Assembly (NCBI RefSeq): GCF_004010195.1
Contig: NC_057718.1
Span: forward strand, 94,026,039 to 94,090,038
Source of the DNA: Chiloscyllium plagiosum
Lineage: Eukaryota
Reading direction: 5' to 3'
Length of the DNA: 64,000 nucleotides
Under the pieces are notes generated by a model that was given only the letters and a program-made list of their open reading frames with translations, made no database searches and was not told the DNA's origin. Position numbers and translations under genes: made by a program. Shown in pieces: positions 3,917-55,381 of this stretch (position 1 is the first letter of the stretch; every line of letters starts with the position of its first letter).

Positions 3917-3954
3917 GGTTCCTGAAGAAGGGCCTGTGCCCGAAACGTCGAATC
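3917..3954 (+). ncRNA. Minimal type I hammerhead ribozyme motif
   Basis: GGTTC-CTGAAGA-A-GGGC(CTGT)GCCC-GAAACGTC-GAATC. Predicted cleavage after C3949. Confidence 0.75.
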
Positions 3955-4037
3955 TCCTGTTCCCTGGATGCTGCCTGACCTGTTCCAGCAATAAAGTTTC
4001 AACTTTGATCTCCAGCATCTGCAGACCTCACTTTCTC
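3921..4037 (+). mobile_element. Single-arm PLE-derived hammerhead mini-element (family B)
   Basis: Near-identical to the element at 28810-29030, with tail ...GCAGACCTCACTTTCTCC. TSD CTGGTGGTT 3912-3920 / 4038-4046. Confidence 0.85.
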
Positions 4038-4182
4038 CTGGTGGTTACTATGCCTCAGGTAAAGGGAGAAGTTGAGAAGGAGAGTCCTTCATGGTAACCT
4101 CAGCTCATGATGGAATTGAACCTACACTGGTGGTATCACACTACTTTTCAAACCAATGGTTCAGCCAACTGAGCTAAACCGA

Positions 4183-5356: not shown

Positions 5357-5569
5357 CAAATAAAAACCGAAAGAGCTGCAAATCAGAAACAAAAACCAGA
5401 AATTGCTGGAAAAGCTCAGCAGGTCTGCAAGAGTTAACACTTTGGGCCCAGTGACTTTTTCTCAGTTCTGAAGGAGGGTCACCAGATCCGAAACATTAAC
5501 TCTGATTTCTCTTCACAGATGCTGCCAGACCTGCTGAGCTTTTCCAGCAAATTCTGTTTTTGCTGTGGT
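5357..5569 (-). mobile_element. PLE-derived hammerhead fold-back element (family C) inside a CR1 3' tail
   Basis: Arms CAGAAATTGCTGGAAAAGCTCAGCAGGTCTG / CAGACCTGCTGAGCTTTTCCAGCAAATTCTG. Degenerate hammerhead at 5464-5503. TSD TCATGGCTGATC 5345-5356 / TCACGGCTGATC 5570-5581. Confidence 0.75.
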
Positions 5570-16963: not shown

Positions 16964-17095
16964 AAACTAAAACAAAGACCTGCAGATGGCGGAGATCTGA
17001 AACTAAAACAGAAATTGCTGGAGAAACACAACAGGTCTGGCAAGATCTGTGAGAAGAGAGTTAACATTTCAAGTCCAGTGACTCTTCGCCAGAAT
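16964..17095 (-). mobile_element. Single-arm PLE-hammerhead element (family C), decayed
   Basis: CTGCAGATGGCGGAGATCTGAAAC...GAGTTAACATTTC...TCTTCGCCAGAA matches the family C arm plus tail. Confidence 0.65.
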
Positions 17096-19716: not shown

Positions 19717-20542
19717 TGTTATGGACCAGATCAAATCCCCTCAAAATATATTAAGAAGATAGTCTCGACCCTACCATTTTCTCATTTAAAGGTAAGTTTA
19801 AGGCATTGTGCTACAGATGCATTTCAATTGGTCAAACAACCAGACTTGGAACAAAACATAGGTAAAAGTGAGGACTGCAGATGCTGGAAACCAGAGTTTA
19901 GATTAGAGTGGTGCTGGAAAAGGACAGCAGGTCAGGTAGCATCCAAGGAGCAGGAAATTCAACGTTCCAGATGAAGGGCTTGGATGCTGCCTGACCTGCT
20001 GTGCTTTTCCAGCACCACTCTAATTGGAACAAAACATACTTTATTCATGCACTATAATTAAAATACAGACAAAATAAAAATGGAGGAATTACCTAAACTG
20101 TAACTCTATTGAAATGTTTAACAAAATAAAAATATTAACTACTACTAATTAACTTTTCCACTATATTACCATTCCACAAGCACACCCTTGGCAAAGGCAA
20201 ATTCAGTAAAATAGAGTCTCTCGCATACAATTCTAGCAGCAGGAAAAGAACGCCAACTTTTCGTTGTAACAGAGAGAGGAATAAGAGCTTCCACATCCAA
20301 CTTCAAGACACCAGCAATTGCTACCTAAGGCTAAAAGTAAAAATAATTCTGATTCTGTGGGAGCATGACCCCATGCGTTCAGGCTGCTTCTATTATTCCA
20401 ACTTTTAAAAATAACCCAAGGGTCTCACAAGGTGTTTACTTTATTGGCTTTGGAGTGGACTGATCCACACCTCTGTCTCAAACGTTCATCATTAAAACAA
20501 AACAGGACAAAATACAATTCTTAAAGCCATAGTAATATCACA
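19717..20542 (-). mobile_element. Probable solo LTR containing a PLE insertion
   Basis: TGTTAT...ATCACA termini, flanks AGAT/GGAT, minus-strand AATAAA near 20040. Confidence 0.45.
19861..20023 (-). mobile_element. PLE-derived fold-back element (family B-related) with deleted centre
   Basis: Inverted arms ATTAGAGTGGTGCTGGAAAAG / CTTTTCCAGCACCACTCTAAT. Perfect 15-bp TSD TTGGAACAAAACATA 19846-19860 / 20024-20038. Confidence 0.85.
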
Positions 20543-25820: not shown

Positions 25821-28809
25821 GGTCTTAGTTAATGGCATAATTGTTGATACTCTAAATCAGGAGGCTCTGAGACCAGTCATTGGATTTGATCAGATAGTAG
25901 TGAAGATGTTCTGTGTTGGCGTCAGTATGAAACATTAACCCAAAGTCATGTCTTGCTGTTCCACTGGTTCAGATGAACAGTAAAGGTCCCATGATATGAT
26001 GCTGCTTCATCAGGTGATGCCAGCAGTAACAAACAGGTGTGGTGCGAAATACAGCATTGACTCATTTATCAGCTAGCTTTCTTTAATTGGCACTCAATGT
26101 TTTCAATCCAATAGTTTATGGCATTTATTCAACAAGTACTCTCACACAGTGGCTGATGATTTTGAACGAGGGCAAATGTTTTTGATCTGAATTATTGAAG
26201 TTTTTGGGATCTTTAAATGCATGAAATGAGTGCCAAATTGCCCAAATGATAAAAGCCATTGCATTGCAAAGTAATCCCTTTTATTCCTTTTCAGATGTTC
26301 CTGAGAGAGATGACGAGACCTCTAGGCAAATCTTGCATTAATTGTCAGATATTGTTTGTGAAAGATAACATTTAAATTGGCTTGCTTTTTATGCGATGAG
26401 ACTGTGTGTATTGTGAGGTTTGTCAATAAGTTTTTTTTGACAGCATGTAACTAGTTGACAGAGTGTTTGCTGTAAATGGCCTAGTGATTGATCTTTATAT
26501 TTATAGACTAGATTTAGTCAAGAAAAGAAAACATTAACCACTTGAAATAAATGGGTCCGATGTGTGCCAATGGCTTGGAACTGTAGGCACTAAAAAATTG
26601 CATGGCATTGATAATTGCCACATACTTCAACAAACGTCAACTGCGCTAACACAAAATTTCCTCCACCAACAACAAATACAAGGTGAGAGCTATTGTAAAC
26701 TACATCTTTTTGAATAATCCAGCTTGTCATTACCTTTATATTCTTTCACTATAAATTGAGGGAAGACTCATATTGCGCAGTCTACATCCTAGTCTACTTT
26801 ATTGTAGTGAGATTACTTTGTTCAAGGTAGCCTCTGAGTCCAGAACCACTTTAAAGCTTTCAATTATGTTGTAAATAAACATATAACTTGAAGCTTATTG
26901 ATGTAAGGCATCTTTTACTGTGTGGATAAAAGGTTTGTTTTCTGTCACTAATTTGAGATTGGAACACTTATCTGTTGTTTGGTTATATCTGGAATATACT
27001 TGTTAAAACTAGACTGTCTGATGCAATTTTGAGCACTGTGACATTTATAGGCATCTTCTATCCTGCTTTCTCCCATTTAGCCATTCCACTGCATTCTGTG
27101 ACAGTTGGATTTATCTCCTTCAGATTAATTCTCCACTTAAGACTAAGTACAGCTGAGTTCAAGCAATTGTCAAGCTGTTGGTTGAATCCATTCTCTTCTC
27201 TCGTCCTGAAAGCTAGAATTGCACTTCTCGACAGATGCTCACATTCAAGATGGTGGCCCACAAAATAACAATCACAGAAACCTGACAATATTTCCACTCC
27301 TCTGACTTTGTAATATTCCTGCCAATTGCAACATCCTCGTGAATATTCTGGTGGATAGCAATGAATTCACCAAAAGCAAGCAGTGAGCCTGATCTTTTGA
27401 TAGTTTACATGGTTCACTTGCATTCCAACACTTTACTAAGCGATTAGATATATCCTGAAAATTTTTGAAATAGGGGATAAAATCTTCATTAAGTAGAATA
27501 TACATATACTCCACAACTTCACTGTTAATGGATAAGTCTTATGCTTACAACTGACATTGAAGGACATTTACAGCATGGAAGCCAAATTAACGCCAGGTCG
27601 GTGTAAGTAGAGGAACATATCGATTAAGCTGCTTCCTTCTGCTTACACTCTAAAGTGAATTCTACACTGTCCAAGGCTCCTTTGCAAGTAATGTATCACA
27701 CACCAGGTCTTATTTGCCATCATTCCTGAGTACACTAATCTACCCTGAATCAATGTTCTCCAATGCATGAAAGTCAACGTCATTTTCCTTTGTCTTACAT
27801 CGACTTACCTGTTAAGTTATCTCAGCTTCATGTCTTTCCTTTCATCATTCCTCCCCCTGACCTTTCAGTGCATCTTGATCCAGCTCCAAAGCTGGGCCAG
27901 AACAGGTGAGGATGACAGATTTTCTTTCCTGAAGGACATTAGTGCATTAGATGAGGTTTTCTCAAACAAATCAGCAGGTATCAACTGTATTTATCCTGCT
28001 AATACCACATTTCCAGACTAAAAGAGAAGGAACACAGACATAAATTGCTGGAGAAACTCAGCAGGCCTGGCAATATCCTGGAGAGAAAGTAGAATTTCTA
28101 CTCCATTGACTCTTCTTCACTCCAGTTCCACAGGATCAGAAAGCAGTATAGGGATACAGTATTGCTATTTAACAGAGCTGAAGCTTAATTGGAAATAAAG
28201 TGCATCATTTTCATGAAATAATGTTTAAAAGGTTCAAGATCTTAAAAACAAGAGATTTAAGACAACGTTTTGCTTTTTTCTAATCTTCTGGGTGTCATCG
28301 GCTGGGCCAGCATTTATTACCCATCCCTCATTTTATTTTGTTTATTCATGGGACATGGACATCACTGGCCAGACCATTTATTACTCCTTCCCTGACTGCC
28401 CAGTCAGCAGATAGGGCTAAACCACATTGTGTGGTTCTGGAGCCACATGTCAGTCAGACTAGGTAAGGATGAAGGATTTCCTTCCTTAAAGGACATTAGG
28501 ACAGATTGAGGTTTTCCCCAACAATCGGCAGTGGCTTTATTGTCAATCCCAGATTTTTATTGAATTCAAACTTCACCATCTGCCATGCTGAGATTTGAAC
28601 ATGGGCCCTCAGAGCATCACTTGGCCATAACCTCCCCACAGGAGGTGCCCTCGAGAAGGTGCTGGTGACCTGCCTTTGGAACCTCTACAGTCCACGTGCT
28701 GCAGGTAGACCCACAATGCCATGAATCTTGACTCAGTGACACTGGAGGAACAGAGATTATAGAGGTTTATAAAATCATGAGGGGCATGGATAGGGTAAAT
28801 AGACAAGGT

Positions 28810-29030
28810 GGAGAAAGTGAGGTCTGCAGATGCTGGAGATCAAAGTTGAAACTTTATTGCTGGAACAGCACAGCAGGTCAGGCAGCATCCAGGGAACAGG
28901 AGATTCGACGTTTCGGGCACAGGCCCTTCTTCAGGATTCCTGAAGAAGGGCCTGTGCCCGAAACGTCGAATCTCCTGTTCCCTGGATGCTGCCTGACCTG
29001 CTGTGCTGTTCCAGCAATAAAGTTTCAACC
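28810..29030 (-). mobile_element. PLE-derived perfect palindromic double-hammerhead element (family B)
   Basis: 92-bp perfect arms 28845-28936 / 28938-29029, 35-bp unpaired tail 28810-28844, TSD TAAATAGACAAGGT 28796-28809 / 29031-29044. Confidence 0.92.
28935..28972 (+). ncRNA. Minimal type I hammerhead ribozyme motif (mirror copy on the minus strand at 28902-28939)
   Basis: Stem I GATTC/GAATC, core CTGAAGA, extra A, stem II GGGC/GCCC, GAA-ACGT-C. GUC cleavage triplet ends at 28967. Confidence 0.8.
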
Positions 29031-29544
29031 TAAATAGACAAGGTCTCTTCCCTGGGTTGGGGGAGACCAGAACTAGATGGCATAGGTTTAGGGTAAGAGG
29101 GGAAAGACTTAAAAGGCACCTAAAGGGCAACTTTCTCATGCAGAGGGTGGTGCGTATATGGAATGCTTTACCAGAGGAGGTGGTGGAGTCTGGTGCAATT
29201 ACAATATTTAACAAACATCTGGAAGGGTAAATGAATAGGAAGGGTTTGGGGGATATGGGCAAGTGCTGGCAAATGGGACTGTTACTGACTATCTGGTCAG
29301 TCTCTATGACTCTATGACTCTAAATATTTCCAAGTTAGGATGATTAGTGGCTTGGAGAGAAATTTGCATGTTGTGGTGTTCCTATGTACCTGTGCCCTTG
29401 TCCTTCTGGAAGATAGATGTTGTGGATTTGGAAGGTGTTTCCTAAGTGTTCAGTATAAATAACCAAATTAAGAAGAAATGAGAAGAAAACATAAAACCAT
29501 ATCGAAGATTCAATGATACATATAGCTCATGCAGACCACAGGGT

Positions 29545-37424: not shown

Positions 37425-38320
37425 AATCTATCTCTGTCTCTTTCACGGTACTTACCAGTCTATTCAATTCCTGAACAATTAGTCTTAATTGGAGTCACCC
37501 ATTGGTCTTTCTGTCCATTCACCTTCTTTTGAGTCTCACTCACTACATGTTTTCAAAGGCTTCATCCTCTTTCTTCAGAATCAATTGCTCACCTCTGTGT
37601 CGTGAAACACTCCACACTAGTGGCTGTATTATAGTCACAGAGTTGTAAGCGCAGGAACAAATCTTTTGGTCCAACTCATCCATGCTGATCAGATATTCTA
37701 CATCAATCTAGTTCCATTTACAAGCAGTTTAGAGGGATAGGGTCCCTATCCCTCTAAACTCTTCCTTTTCATGTAGCCAACCAGATGCTTTTTAAATGTT
37801 GTAATTGTACCAGCCTCCACCACATCCTTTGGATTAGTTTTCAGCTGAATGCTGATGTTTTTGCTGCTTGGGTCATACCTCTTGCTATAGCCTTTCTAAG
37901 TTAGATTTAACACTTGGATATAATTTTGGTGTTTATCATCTACTTAAGGTAGTTGAACTTATCCATTGACTTTTTTCTTGATGCTTCTAGTCTTGACTTT
38001 TATATTATCATCTTGCGGTGAAACGTTGGTCTTTGCCTCACTTATGTTCAGACCAGATGACCCAGTGCATTGGTTATTTTGGCTGGGTCATGAATAACCC
38101 TGTAGAAACCTTCAATCCAGTGCATCCGATTCCCACTCTAGATTCTGATCATTCTGGAAGATTCACACTCAACTTATACATCGTGTTCTTTAGAATAGCC
38201 ACTGCTTTTAAGGACCCTATTTTGTCACAGAGAAGCGCATTCCAAAATACTGAGCGGGATGACATTAGCAAAACATTAAGTGAGCAAAATTGTGGTTGAA
38301 GAGTTAATCTTTGAGGATAT

Positions 38321-38917: not shown

Positions 38918-39024
38918 ATAAACAAAAACAGAAATTGCTGGAAAATCTCAGCAGGTCTGGCACCACCTGTGGAGAGTAATCAGAGTTAACTTTTCGGGGT
39001 TGAGTGACCCTTCCTCAGAACTGA
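38918..39024 (-). mobile_element. Single-arm PLE-hammerhead element (family C)
   Basis: Minus strand reads AGTT-CTGAGGA-A-GGGTCACTCAACCCC-GAAAAGTT-AACT. Confidence 0.75.
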
Positions 39025-47648: not shown

Positions 47649-47788
47649 GAGTTCTGAGGAACGGTCACTCGACCTGAAATGTTAACTCTGATTTCTCTTC
47701 ACAGGTGCTGCCAGACCCGCTGAACTTGCTCAGCAATTTCTGTTTTCATTTCCAATATACAGCATCCGTAGTTCAGTCAGTTTCTATT
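47649..47788 (+). mobile_element. Single-arm PLE-hammerhead element (family C) inserted in the B box of a short tRNA SINE (47592-47860)
   Basis: GAGTT-CTGAGGA-A-CGGTC(ACTC)GACCT-GAAATGTT-AACTC. TSD CAACC(C/G)AAGTTCA 47636-47648 / 47789-47801. Confidence 0.8.
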
Positions 47789-48876: not shown

Positions 48877-49116
48877 GCTGAAAATGTGTTGCTGGAAAAG
48901 CGCAGCAGGTCAGGCAGCATCCAGGGAACAGGAGAATCGACGTTTCGGGCATAAGTCCTTCTTCAGGAATGAGGAAAGTGTGCCCTGATTCCTGAAGAAG
49001 GGCTTATGCCCGAAACGTCGATTCTCCTGTTCCCTGGATGCTGCCTGACCTGCTGCGCTTTTCCAGCAACACATTTTCAGCTCTGACCTCCAGCATCTGC
49101 AGACCTCACTTTCTCC
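48877..49116 (+). mobile_element. PLE-derived double-hammerhead fold-back element (family B)
   Basis: 94-bp arms 48877-48970 / 48988-49081 (1 mismatch), 17-bp spacer, 35-bp tail, TSD (CC)TCTTAAGTCCCATT 48861-48876 / 49115-49130. Confidence 0.92.
48987..49024 (+). ncRNA. Minimal type I hammerhead ribozyme motif
   Basis: GATTC-CTGAAGA-A-GGGC(TTAT)GCCC-GAAACGTC-GATTC. Confidence 0.75.
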
Positions 49117-54517: not shown

Positions 54518-55160
54518 ATCTTTAAAAAGGACTATGAACCAAGAGTTACAAAGTGGGCTTGAATAATAAACTGAATGGTCTCCTTTAGTATCAGAAACGT
54601 TTCATATTTTATGTAAATGGTTAGATACAGGAATTACCATAACCAGATTAACAGTCTCTCTGTTTCAAGACATATCACTTTACCAATGTGTATACGTATG
54701 CATGCATGTATATGTGTATAAATGTATCTACCTGCTTATCTTTATCTGTCTGTCTGCCTACCTATTGCTCTGATTCTAGTTAGTTAGCAGCCTATGCTGT
54801 GAAGGCTCTGCCACTGTTAGATTGGGCATAAAGACCAAGGTGAGGCAGCTAAAGCTTGGGCATGGTTAATGTGGAAAAAAGCAGAGAGATCGGATGTGAA
54901 GAGGCTATGCAGAGATTTGAGGATAAGGACAGGATTCCAAGGATGGCAGGACTGATGTGCAAAGGAGACTGGATTGGTTAGGAATATAGTCACTGGAGGT
55001 TAGAAGAATGAAGTGGTGCATTTTGGCAAGACAAATGTGGGCAGGACTTATATAATTAATGGTTGGACCCTGGGGAGTGTTGTTGAACAGAGAGATCTAG
55101 GAGTTCAGATATATAGCTTTTTGAAGGTTATGTCAGAGGTAGACAGGGTTATAAAGAAGG

Positions 55161-55381
55161 CTGAAGACAACGAGTGCTGGAGATCCCAGAAGATCAGGCA
55201 GCATTCGTGCAGGGAGAGCAAGCTAACGTTTCAAGACTGGATGATTCTTCATCAGAGTCATCTAGACTCGAAATGTTAGCTTGCTCTTTCTTCATGGATG
55301 CGGTCTGACTGCTGTGATCTCCAGCACTTGTTGTTTTCAGAATAGATTCCAGCTCCTACATAGTAATTTGCTCCTACATAG
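55161..55381 (+). mobile_element. PLE-derived hammerhead fold-back element (family D)
   Basis: Arms CTGAAGACAACGAGTGCTGGAGATC / GATCTCCAGCACTTGTTGTTTTCAG. Minus-strand CTGATGA-A...GAAACGTT-AGC, stem II GAGTC/GACTC, TSD TAAAGAAGG 55152-55160 / 55382-55390. Confidence 0.8.

What the first reader, a model, noticed from the sequence alone, without database searches (positions are those of the whole stretch)
28796..29044. Perfect 185-bp palindrome made of two head-to-head hammerheads
Arms 28845-28936 and 28938-29029 are exact reverse complements around a single T at 28937, and the symmetry axis lies in stem I of the ribozyme. A hammerhead is therefore encoded on each strand (plus strand: GATTC-CTGAAGA-A-GGGC/GCCC-GAAACGTC-GAATC). 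An unpaired 35-bp tail and a perfect 14-bp TSD in a CR1 indicate a very recent retro-insertion. Inference: read-through transcripts would form 92-bp dsRNA that masks the ribozyme and could feed ADAR or Dicer. The DNA could extrude a cruciform.
Basis: partly seen in the sequence, partly recalled or inferred. Interest (0 to 1): 0.78.

Follow-up and report, generated by a model that had tools for sequence, protein, structure and literature searches.

The report
Two-ended Penelope retroelement mini-insertion
This palindrome is real but common: it is a young stub of a Penelope-like jumping gene with at least 194 same-centre twins in this genome, and the twins' shared pattern suggests it was likely made by copying one capped RNA twice, once from each side of the DNA cut, and joining the two copies head to head.

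Summary
In detail: 92-bp perfect arms around T28937, a 35-bp tail, a 14-bp target duplication, inside a CR1. It is not unique. The 29-nt centre occurs 1,380 times and the 61-nt centre 194 times; 7 of 30 twins carry the identical 220-mer. It is the terminal repeat (pLTR) of a Neptune-type Penelope-like element, in the published layout: inverted pLTR, pLTR, tail. The scan noted this kind before on other DNA of this genome. The hammerheads are minimal, dimer-type motifs and are predicted to be masked by the hairpin. No RNA reads lay on the unique flanks.

New here are population rules. Head-to-head copies carried one tailed and one tail-less arm (42 of 42; none with two tails or none). Arms stop 5' at one spot, 32 nt upstream of the ribozyme cut site, often with an extra G. 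The centre base splits 25:25. The tailed arm is usually the shorter at the junction (25 v 8). These fit two target-primed cDNAs started at the two internal sites, run off a capped 5' end and joined. They fit fold-back self-priming poorly. The mechanism is inferred from genomic copies only.

The parts
28757..28809 (+). Host CR1-type LINE fragment, left part (ORF2 C-terminus; its last 14 nt are the first TSD copy)
   Evidence: frame reads ..IEVYKIMRGMDRVNRQG.. and aligns at 73-90% to six other copies in the window; the CR1 label is recalled from the motif, no library call named it
28796..28809 (+). Target-site duplication, copy 1 (14 bp)
   Evidence: single copy in uninterrupted CR1s; family TSD mode 14-15 bp
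28810..28844 (-). 35-bp PLE 'tail' (+92 to +126, numbering from first C of CCTGAAG); its end is the downstream of the two 3' end sites
   Evidence: 3' ends are bimodal, +90 to +93 in 42 and +126 to +128 in 29 of 97 arms
28845..28936 (-). Tailed arm: pLTR copy from -1 to +91
   Evidence: the same pLTR lies downstream of a GIY-YIG ORF end in L179 and L073
28902..28939 (-). Minimal hammerhead motif, minus strand; stem I has an A.A mismatch; predicted cut between 28907 and 28906
   Evidence: Sequence; matches the min-HHR description in PMC4209133
28937..28937 (.). Centre base of the head-to-head junction (-3/-1 junction class)
   Evidence: A in 25 and T in 25 of 50 one-tailed perfect-centre copies oriented by their tail; 16 A and 14 T in 30 copies of this subfamily
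28935..28972 (+). Minimal hammerhead motif, plus strand: GATTC / CTGAAGA / A / GGGC-CTGT-GCCC / GAAA-CG-TC / GAATC; predicted cut after 28967; A28936 is the inferred RNA 5' end
   Evidence: Sequence, folds, 5'-end pile-up
28938..29029 (+). Tail-less arm: inverted pLTR copy ending at +91, the upstream 3' end site
29030..29030 (+). One extra C, in neither the element nor the target
29031..29044 (+). Target-site duplication, copy 2
29045..29322 (+). Host CR1-type LINE fragment, right part, ending in short CTATGACT repeats

Best explanation
It is a dead 221-bp insertion of the terminal repeat of a Neptune-type Penelope-like retrotransposon, likely made when the element's enzyme cut both DNA strands 14 bp apart, copied one capped RNA from each cut end, and the two short copies were joined head to head. 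Shown: identity as pLTR plus tail, TSD, copy numbers, two fixed 3' ends, one fixed 5' end, the one-tail rule, the extra G, the even split of the centre base. Inferred: one target end primes at +91 and the other at +126; both cDNAs run to a transcript start at A(-3), which is also the first base of hammerhead stem I; reading the cap adds a C; the two cDNA ends (each ..GGAATC) would anneal over 5 nt with a central A.A mismatch that is later fixed to A or T; other copies join at other microhomologies. The hammerheads are passengers and are predicted to be silenced by the 92-bp hairpin.
For: Parent: the same pLTR follows an ORF end with C-X4-CxxC and GIY-YIG (Pfam PF01541, E 1e-4 to 4e-4, at or just under the curated cut-off) and precedes an ORF start in other copies. 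Two 3' ends: 42 and 29 of 97 arms, as for the two internal RT start sites of the anole element (PMC11167929), which also cut and extended both strands and was modelled as a dimer. One-tail rule: 41 of 42 head-to-head copies by motif, the 42nd holding the last 22 nt of the tail on one arm; none with two tails or none; solo copies split 22 tail-less, 20 tailed, 1 other; p about 1e-11 against independent choice. Also 50 of 51 and 30 of 30 perfect-centre copies (7 loci are in both sets). 5' ends at -5 to +1 in 67 of 97 arms. Non-native base before A(-3): G 893, A or T 427, G share 0.68 against 0.26 expected, 0.62 after removing partner-derived cases; control at -2: G in 7 of the 100 listed (counted by eye). 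An extra G marks capped full-length L1 insertions (PMC11702581). Tailed arm shorter at the junction in 25, tail-less in 8, equal in 4 of 37; all 8 truncations of 15 nt or more are on the tailed arm. Arms share a haplotype in 25 of 39 against 3.5 expected, with locus-private variants on both arms in L134, L233, L235, L242.
Against: All mechanism steps are read from genomic copies; no intermediate was seen. No transcript start was observed: the one informative RNA run (poly-A single-cell, 2% read) showed no pile-up at -3, and 62 reads ran on into native upstream sequence. The extra G could come from untemplated addition rather than a cap. 14 of 39 perfect-centre copies differ between arms at common variable sites; many look like CpG decay, but L001, L006, L130, L237 and L243 differ at subfamily-type sites, so some may come from two RNAs. 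Shared haplotypes could also reflect subfamilies active at different times, or later conversion. 8 of 37 junctions (tail-less arm shorter) and 4 equal ones are also compatible with fold-back. Four of the 42 head-to-head copies share junctions in pairs and are not independent. No gap-free full-length parent was recovered among 20 candidate loci. Clade assignment rests on one motif, no tree.
Confidence: 0.62

Rival explanations
1. Fold-back or self-priming: one cDNA (or an antisense template) turns back on itself at the 5' end and copies itself, giving the inverted arm (related to the proposal in PMC3846280).
For: Arms usually share a haplotype and private variants. A cDNA ending ..GGAATC could form a 3-nt-loop hairpin, and -2/+7 junctions fit a 5-nt loop (3 of 37). 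Proposed in print from palindromes at inverted junctions.
Against: A fold-back copy cannot reach further 5' than its template nor add a tail its template lacks, yet the tail-less arm reaches further 5' in 25 of 37. It predicts one centre base relative to the tail, but the split is 25:25; this locus has the base that fold-back from the tailed arm would not give. The short arm ends at the same +91 site as solo copies. The commonest junction (-2/+4, 5 of 37) would need a 2-nt loop.
Confidence: 0.15
2. A palindromic non-autonomous element (SINE- or retrozyme-like master) that spreads as a unit, with the inverted arm copied from a hairpin RNA.
For: 7 of 30 twins hold the identical 220-mer; some composite head-to-head units do recur with the same junction and flank (L052, L063, L121; L095, L120).
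Against: Junctions are heterogeneous (largest class 5 of 37); the same junction occurs with either arm as the shorter (L058 against L072); the centre base is split within one subfamily (16:14); no master flank is shared among the short copies; the same layout recurs in several subfamilies.
Confidence: 0.1
3. All copies insert as perfect palindromes and the varied centres arise later by cruciform breakage and repair; this copy is simply not yet revised.
For: Long perfect palindromes are unstable (general knowledge); many junctions show 1-3 nt microhomology.
Against: Later breakage has no reason to prefer the tailed arm (25 v 8; deep truncations 8 of 8). Several copies hold native -4/-5 bases on both arms that a perfect -3/-1 centre lacks (L057, L083, L097, L127).
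Confidence: 0.08
4. Assembly fold-back artefact at this locus.
For: No contig spanned the insertion in four public runs.
Against: TSD on both sides; hundreds of twins with own target sites; older copies have diverged arms; short-read contigs break at any high-copy repeat.
Confidence: 0.02
5. A functional ribozyme switch or dsRNA source kept by the host.
For: A read-through RNA would fold into a 92-bp hairpin (about -200 kcal/mol).
Against: Very young copy inside another repeat; no reads on unique flanks in run X21 and none at all in X22; none of 93 window ORFs of 85 aa or more gave a clear host-gene domain, only RT-type hits and weak ones, though short exons would be missed; minimal hammerheads need a same-strand partner.
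Confidence: 0.03

Closest known systems
Insertion unit of endonuclease-bearing Penelope-like elements: pLTR, adjacent inverted pLTR, 30-40 bp tail, TSD (PMC3846280; PMC8557442)
   Same: Head-to-head pLTRs, a 35-bp tail at one end only, TSD, palindrome at the junction.
   Different: Reduced to the pLTR alone with no ORF; thousands of copies allow counting. Those papers ascribe the inversion to self-priming on an antisense template and the tail to endonuclease resolution; the counts here point to two primed cDNAs.
Poseidon of the green anole, in vitro (PMC11167929)
   Same: Two internal start sites bounding the tail; both strands cut and extended; hammerhead cleavage not needed; predicted dimer.
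   Different: Other clade (Neptune-type linker motif here). The text I read does not treat inverted insertions, pairing of the two sites, or a cap-derived G. Here many junctions overlap the target by 1-3 nt, whereas that paper reports no homology.
Minimal hammerheads of metazoan PLE pLTRs (PMC4209133)
   Same: No helix III loop, palindromic CG at 15.2-16.2, extra base between 9 and 10.1, G10.1-C11.1, short stem I; opposite-strand pairs were noted there at 100-700 bp.
   Different: Stem II is 4 bp rather than 7-8; the two motifs overlap at the axis; activity not tested here.
L1 twin priming and cap-derived extra G (PMC11702581 passages)
   Same: Both target ends prime on the RNA, TSD preserved, inverted 5' part, microhomology at the joint, extra G at full-length 5' ends.
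   Different: In L1 the second priming site is variable and the two cDNAs barely overlap; here both sites are fixed and both cDNAs cover the same 90 nt, giving a palindrome.

Membership tests
EN+ Penelope-like element insertion | Parent ORF with RT and C-terminal GIY-YIG next to the pLTR | tested here: met
   GIY-YIG at E 1e-4 (22.8 bits, cut-off 22.6) upstream of a 96% identical pLTR in L179; RT thumb and GIY-YIG in L073; RVT_1 hit (below cut-off) in a related fragment L014; no single gap-free copy held all parts
EN+ Penelope-like element insertion | pLTR at both ORF end and ORF start; partial tandems | tested here: met
   pLTR plus tail runs into an ORF start in 379 exact matches and forms 224-bp tandems
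EN+ Penelope-like element insertion | Optional 30-40 bp tail at one end | tested here: met
   35 bp; bimodal 3' ends
EN+ Penelope-like element insertion | Adjacent inverted pLTR and TSD | tested here: met
Neptune or Nematis clade | CX2-5CxxC motif between RT and endonuclease | tested here: met
   C-X4-CxxC in L073 and L179; definition from PMC8557442
Neptune or Nematis clade | Placement in an RT tree | not tested
   No reference set on hand
Minimal hammerhead (min-HHR) | Intact catalytic core, extra base 9.1, palindromic 15.2-16.2, no loop 3 | tested here: met
   Sequence read against PMC4209133
Minimal hammerhead (min-HHR) | Self-cleavage as a dimer or with protein help | not testable with these tools
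   Needs an assay; fold predicted to be masked here
Canonical Rfam hammerhead families | Score at gathering threshold | tested here: not met
   0 matches in the window
Retrozyme or self-propagating palindromic element | Same-strand ribozymes bounding a unit whose ends fall at the cut site; fixed internal junction | tested here: not met
   Opposite strands; 79 arms start at the cut site, about 37 of them explained by microhomology, against 2,053 at -3; junctions vary
L1-type twin priming | Two target-primed cDNAs joined by microhomology with TSD kept | tested here: inconclusive
   Sequence signatures fit but priming was not observed; works like it, but the element is not an L1

The most novel reading that the evidence does not exclude
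Penelope-like elements integrate by an obligate paired reaction: one complex uses the two internal start sites of a single RNA, one for each cut strand, so every inverted insertion has exactly one tail; when it acts on the capped 5' pLTR both cDNAs run off the cap, and the cap-derived C lets them anneal over a central mismatch, mass-producing perfect ribozyme palindromes. This would explain the tail, the inverted pLTR and the junction palindrome, three long-unexplained PLE features, by one mechanism.
Probability: 0.45. Interest if true: 0.62.

Novelty: new member of a known kind. Interest (0 to 1): 0.38.

Why it matters
The locus itself is ordinary. The family is useful because papers on Penelope-like elements still list the origin of inverted pLTRs and tails as open (PMC8557442), and this genome holds thousands of near-identical young copies that record the integration reaction. 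The one-tail rule, the fixed 5' end with an extra G and the even centre split give direct predictions for the existing in vitro system. If the paired reaction is right, it also explains how a vertebrate genome gains over a thousand near-perfect 185-bp palindromes, which are potential sources of double-stranded RNA and fragile DNA.

Tried and rejected
DNA search of the own genome with the 221-mer gave nothing because common words are skipped; patterns were used instead. Rfam scan: no hit. Pfam on three short frameshifted fragments: no hit. Twenty candidate full-length parents: none gap-free with all parts. Contigs of four public runs (two studies) laid on the locus: unique flank pieces present, nothing spans the insert, the skip-joints come from other CR1 copies, so presence-absence is undecided; one X6 contig matches only from 29031 onward and is unexplained. 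RNA: X21 gave family reads only, X22 none, X17 contigs uninformative; A>G differences cannot be told from family variants. Ribozyme cleavage as the cause of the axis: rejected. In one search a local aligner over-extended some short arms (the one 'two-tail' call, L005, is such an artefact); tails were recounted by motif, and two motif misses proved to be tailed with indels. The binomial printed assumed 42 of 42; the value used is (41 of 42). Three of the first 100 matches were dropped as identical in context before counting (97 arms).

Full report
Observation. The palindrome is as described: arms 28845-28936 and 28938-29029 are exact reverse complements around T28937. A 14-bp duplication flanks a 221-bp insert made of a 35-bp unpaired tail, the two arms and one extra C at 29030. 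With the insert removed the flanks read as one LINE ORF2 end, and six other copies in the window carry the 14-mer once; the name CR1 is recalled from the motif. The genome has 3.56 billion bases; that it is a shark is my recollection of these repeats and the wording of earlier scan notes, not tested.

Not unique. The 29-nt centre occurs at 1,380 places, control 0. The 61-nt centre of this subfamily occurs at 194; of the first 30, 14 hold the same 185-mer (either centre base) and 7 the identical 220-mer, each at its own target site. A 39-mer of one arm occurs 11,385 times, the native upstream junction of a sister subfamily 9,496 times. The window itself holds a solo copy (3920-4038) and a second head-to-head copy with a 21-nt spacer (48879-49116). 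Earlier notes of this scan describe the same kind of object elsewhere in this genome.

Parent. In longer copies the repeat follows an ORF end with C-X4-CxxC and a GIY-YIG domain (L179, L073; Pfam E 1e-4 to 4e-4, around the cut-off), and repeat plus tail runs on into an ORF start (379 exact matches). This is the pLTR of an endonuclease-bearing Penelope-like element; the linker motif marks Neptune or Nematis (PMC8557442). No gap-free full copy was found among 20 loci. The layout pLTR, adjacent inverted pLTR, 30-40 bp tail and TSD is the published typical form (PMC3846280; PMC8557442).

Ribozyme. Both strands carry the minimal hammerhead of PLE pLTRs (PMC4209133): full core, extra A before stem II, no loop 3. 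That paper found monomers inactive and dimers weakly active. Plus-strand stem I pairs fully; the minus strand has an A.A mismatch. Any one transcript holds one motif preceded by its complement, and forcing the ribozyme fold costs 59.8 (plus) or 63.7 (minus) kcal/mol against the hairpin. Rfam gave no hit. In RNA run X21 the unique flanks had no reads; only family reads were laid.

Population rules (numbering: +1 is the first C of CCTGAAG). I took the first 100 matches and kept 97 arms after dropping 3 with identical context. 3' ends are bimodal: +90 to +93 in 42, +126 to +128 in 29; 5' ends fall at -5 to +1 in 67. They form 87 insertions: 42 head-to-head, 43 solo, 2 beside gaps. Solo copies end at either site (22, 20, 1 other). 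Head-to-head copies had one tailed and one tail-less arm: 41 of 42 by motif, the last with 22 nt of tail on one arm, none with two tails or none (p about 1e-11). The same held for 50 of 51 perfect-centre copies of mixed subfamilies (the exception has a 13-nt second arm) and 30 of 30 of this subfamily (7 loci shared). TSDs were 13-17 bp in 30 of 31. Among 37 short head-to-head copies the tailed arm is the shorter at the junction in 25, the tail-less in 8, equal in 4, and all 8 deep truncations are on the tailed arm.

The axis. Arms that stop at A(-3) number 2,053 by one pattern, against 79 starting at the ribozyme cut site by a somewhat stricter one, so cleavage does not set the axis. The base before A(-3) is G in 893 and A or T in 427: share 0.68, expected 0.26; 7 of 30 inspected were or may be partner-derived, leaving 0.62. 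At -2 a G preceded only 7 of 100 listed (by eye). The native context TCATTCC fits the initiator consensus YYANWYY (recalled), Penelope's start site lies in its pLTR, and an extra G marks capped L1 5' ends (PMC11702581). I infer a capped start at A(-3). Two cDNA ends reading GGAATC would pair over 5 nt with a central A.A mismatch, which predicts exactly this centre and an even split; observed 25:25 and 16:14. One-base microhomology with either arm trimmed would give the same split.

Mechanism. The anole element cuts and extends both strands, starts at two internal sites that bound the tail, does not need its ribozyme to cut, and is modelled as a dimer (PMC11167929). Put together: both target ends prime, one at +91 and one at +126, most often on the same RNA (same haplotype in 25 of 39 against 3.5 expected; private variants on both arms in four loci), the downstream copy trails and is more often cut short, and the two 3' ends are joined. 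Against: no intermediate or start site was seen; five loci have arms differing at subfamily-type sites; 12 of 37 junctions also fit fold-back; four head-to-head copies are repeats of two masters. Fold-back alone fails on the 25 copies whose tail-less arm reaches further 5' and on the even centre split; a single palindromic master fails on junction diversity.

Literature. Seen: PMC4209133 and PMC11167929, parts 1-2 of 4 (results and discussion); PMC3846280, passages and Discussion; PMC8557442 and PMC11702581, passages; other papers as search listings only; no supplements, which may bear on the anole start sites. Eight searches found no paper stating the one-tail pairing or a cap G for PLEs, but key older subscription papers are outside the library, so priority is uncertain.

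Verdict. Real, young, ordinary as an object: a new member of a known kind, interest 0.38. The value lies in the family-wide rules, which turn an open question about PLE integration into specific tests.

Noticed in passing
L255 (G000:C1:1859400-1865100); also L063, L121, L095, L120: A 3.0-kb unit: inverted tailed pLTR, pLTR, 2.5 kb of AT-rich DNA unlike the parent ORF at its two ends, pLTR, with a 14-bp TSD. The same head-to-head junction and internal start recur at other loci, so a composite non-autonomous element carrying unrelated DNA is being copied.
   Followed up: partly
L125, L088; G000:C8:24157651-24158518: Tandem units of about 224 bp (pLTR, tail, start of ORF, short upstream piece), up to five in a row, giving same-strand hammerheads that could form the active dimer; retrozyme-like.
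   Followed up: partly
listing: Of 28 arms with T instead of A at -3, 16 have G at -4 (by eye): G-T-TTCC, as if the first capped A were misread by the RT.
   Followed up: no
window 28844 (run X21): 25 family reads have a loose end with a poly-T consensus just at the +91/+92 site, about 10 nt after an AATAAA in this subfamily's pLTR; possibly a poly-A site, but the sister subfamily lacks the AATAAA and ends at the same place.
   Followed up: no
31 head-to-head loci: Target and element overlap by 1-4 nt at the tail-less end in 26 of 31 and by 1-5 nt at the tailed end in 16 of 31, hinting at short primer-template pairing; no null model was run.
   Followed up: partly
window 3920-4038 and 48879-49116: Two more copies of the family: a solo tailed copy with an 8-nt deletion and a head-to-head copy with a 21-nt spacer and its own TSD.
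   Followed up: yes
window 5388-5565, 19865-20026, 47654-47750, 55160-55345, 38920-39022, 16980-17095: Older, related hammerhead-bearing repeats of other families, several also head to head.
   Followed up: no
window 37726-37760: A 35-bp perfect palindrome (17-bp arms, 1-nt centre) inside another repeat, unrelated in sequence.
   Followed up: no
window 28616-28673 and 29031-29100 (run X6): One run lacks cover at 28616-28673 and has a 234-nt contig matching only from 29031 onward; possibly a different haplotype at this locus.
   Followed up: no
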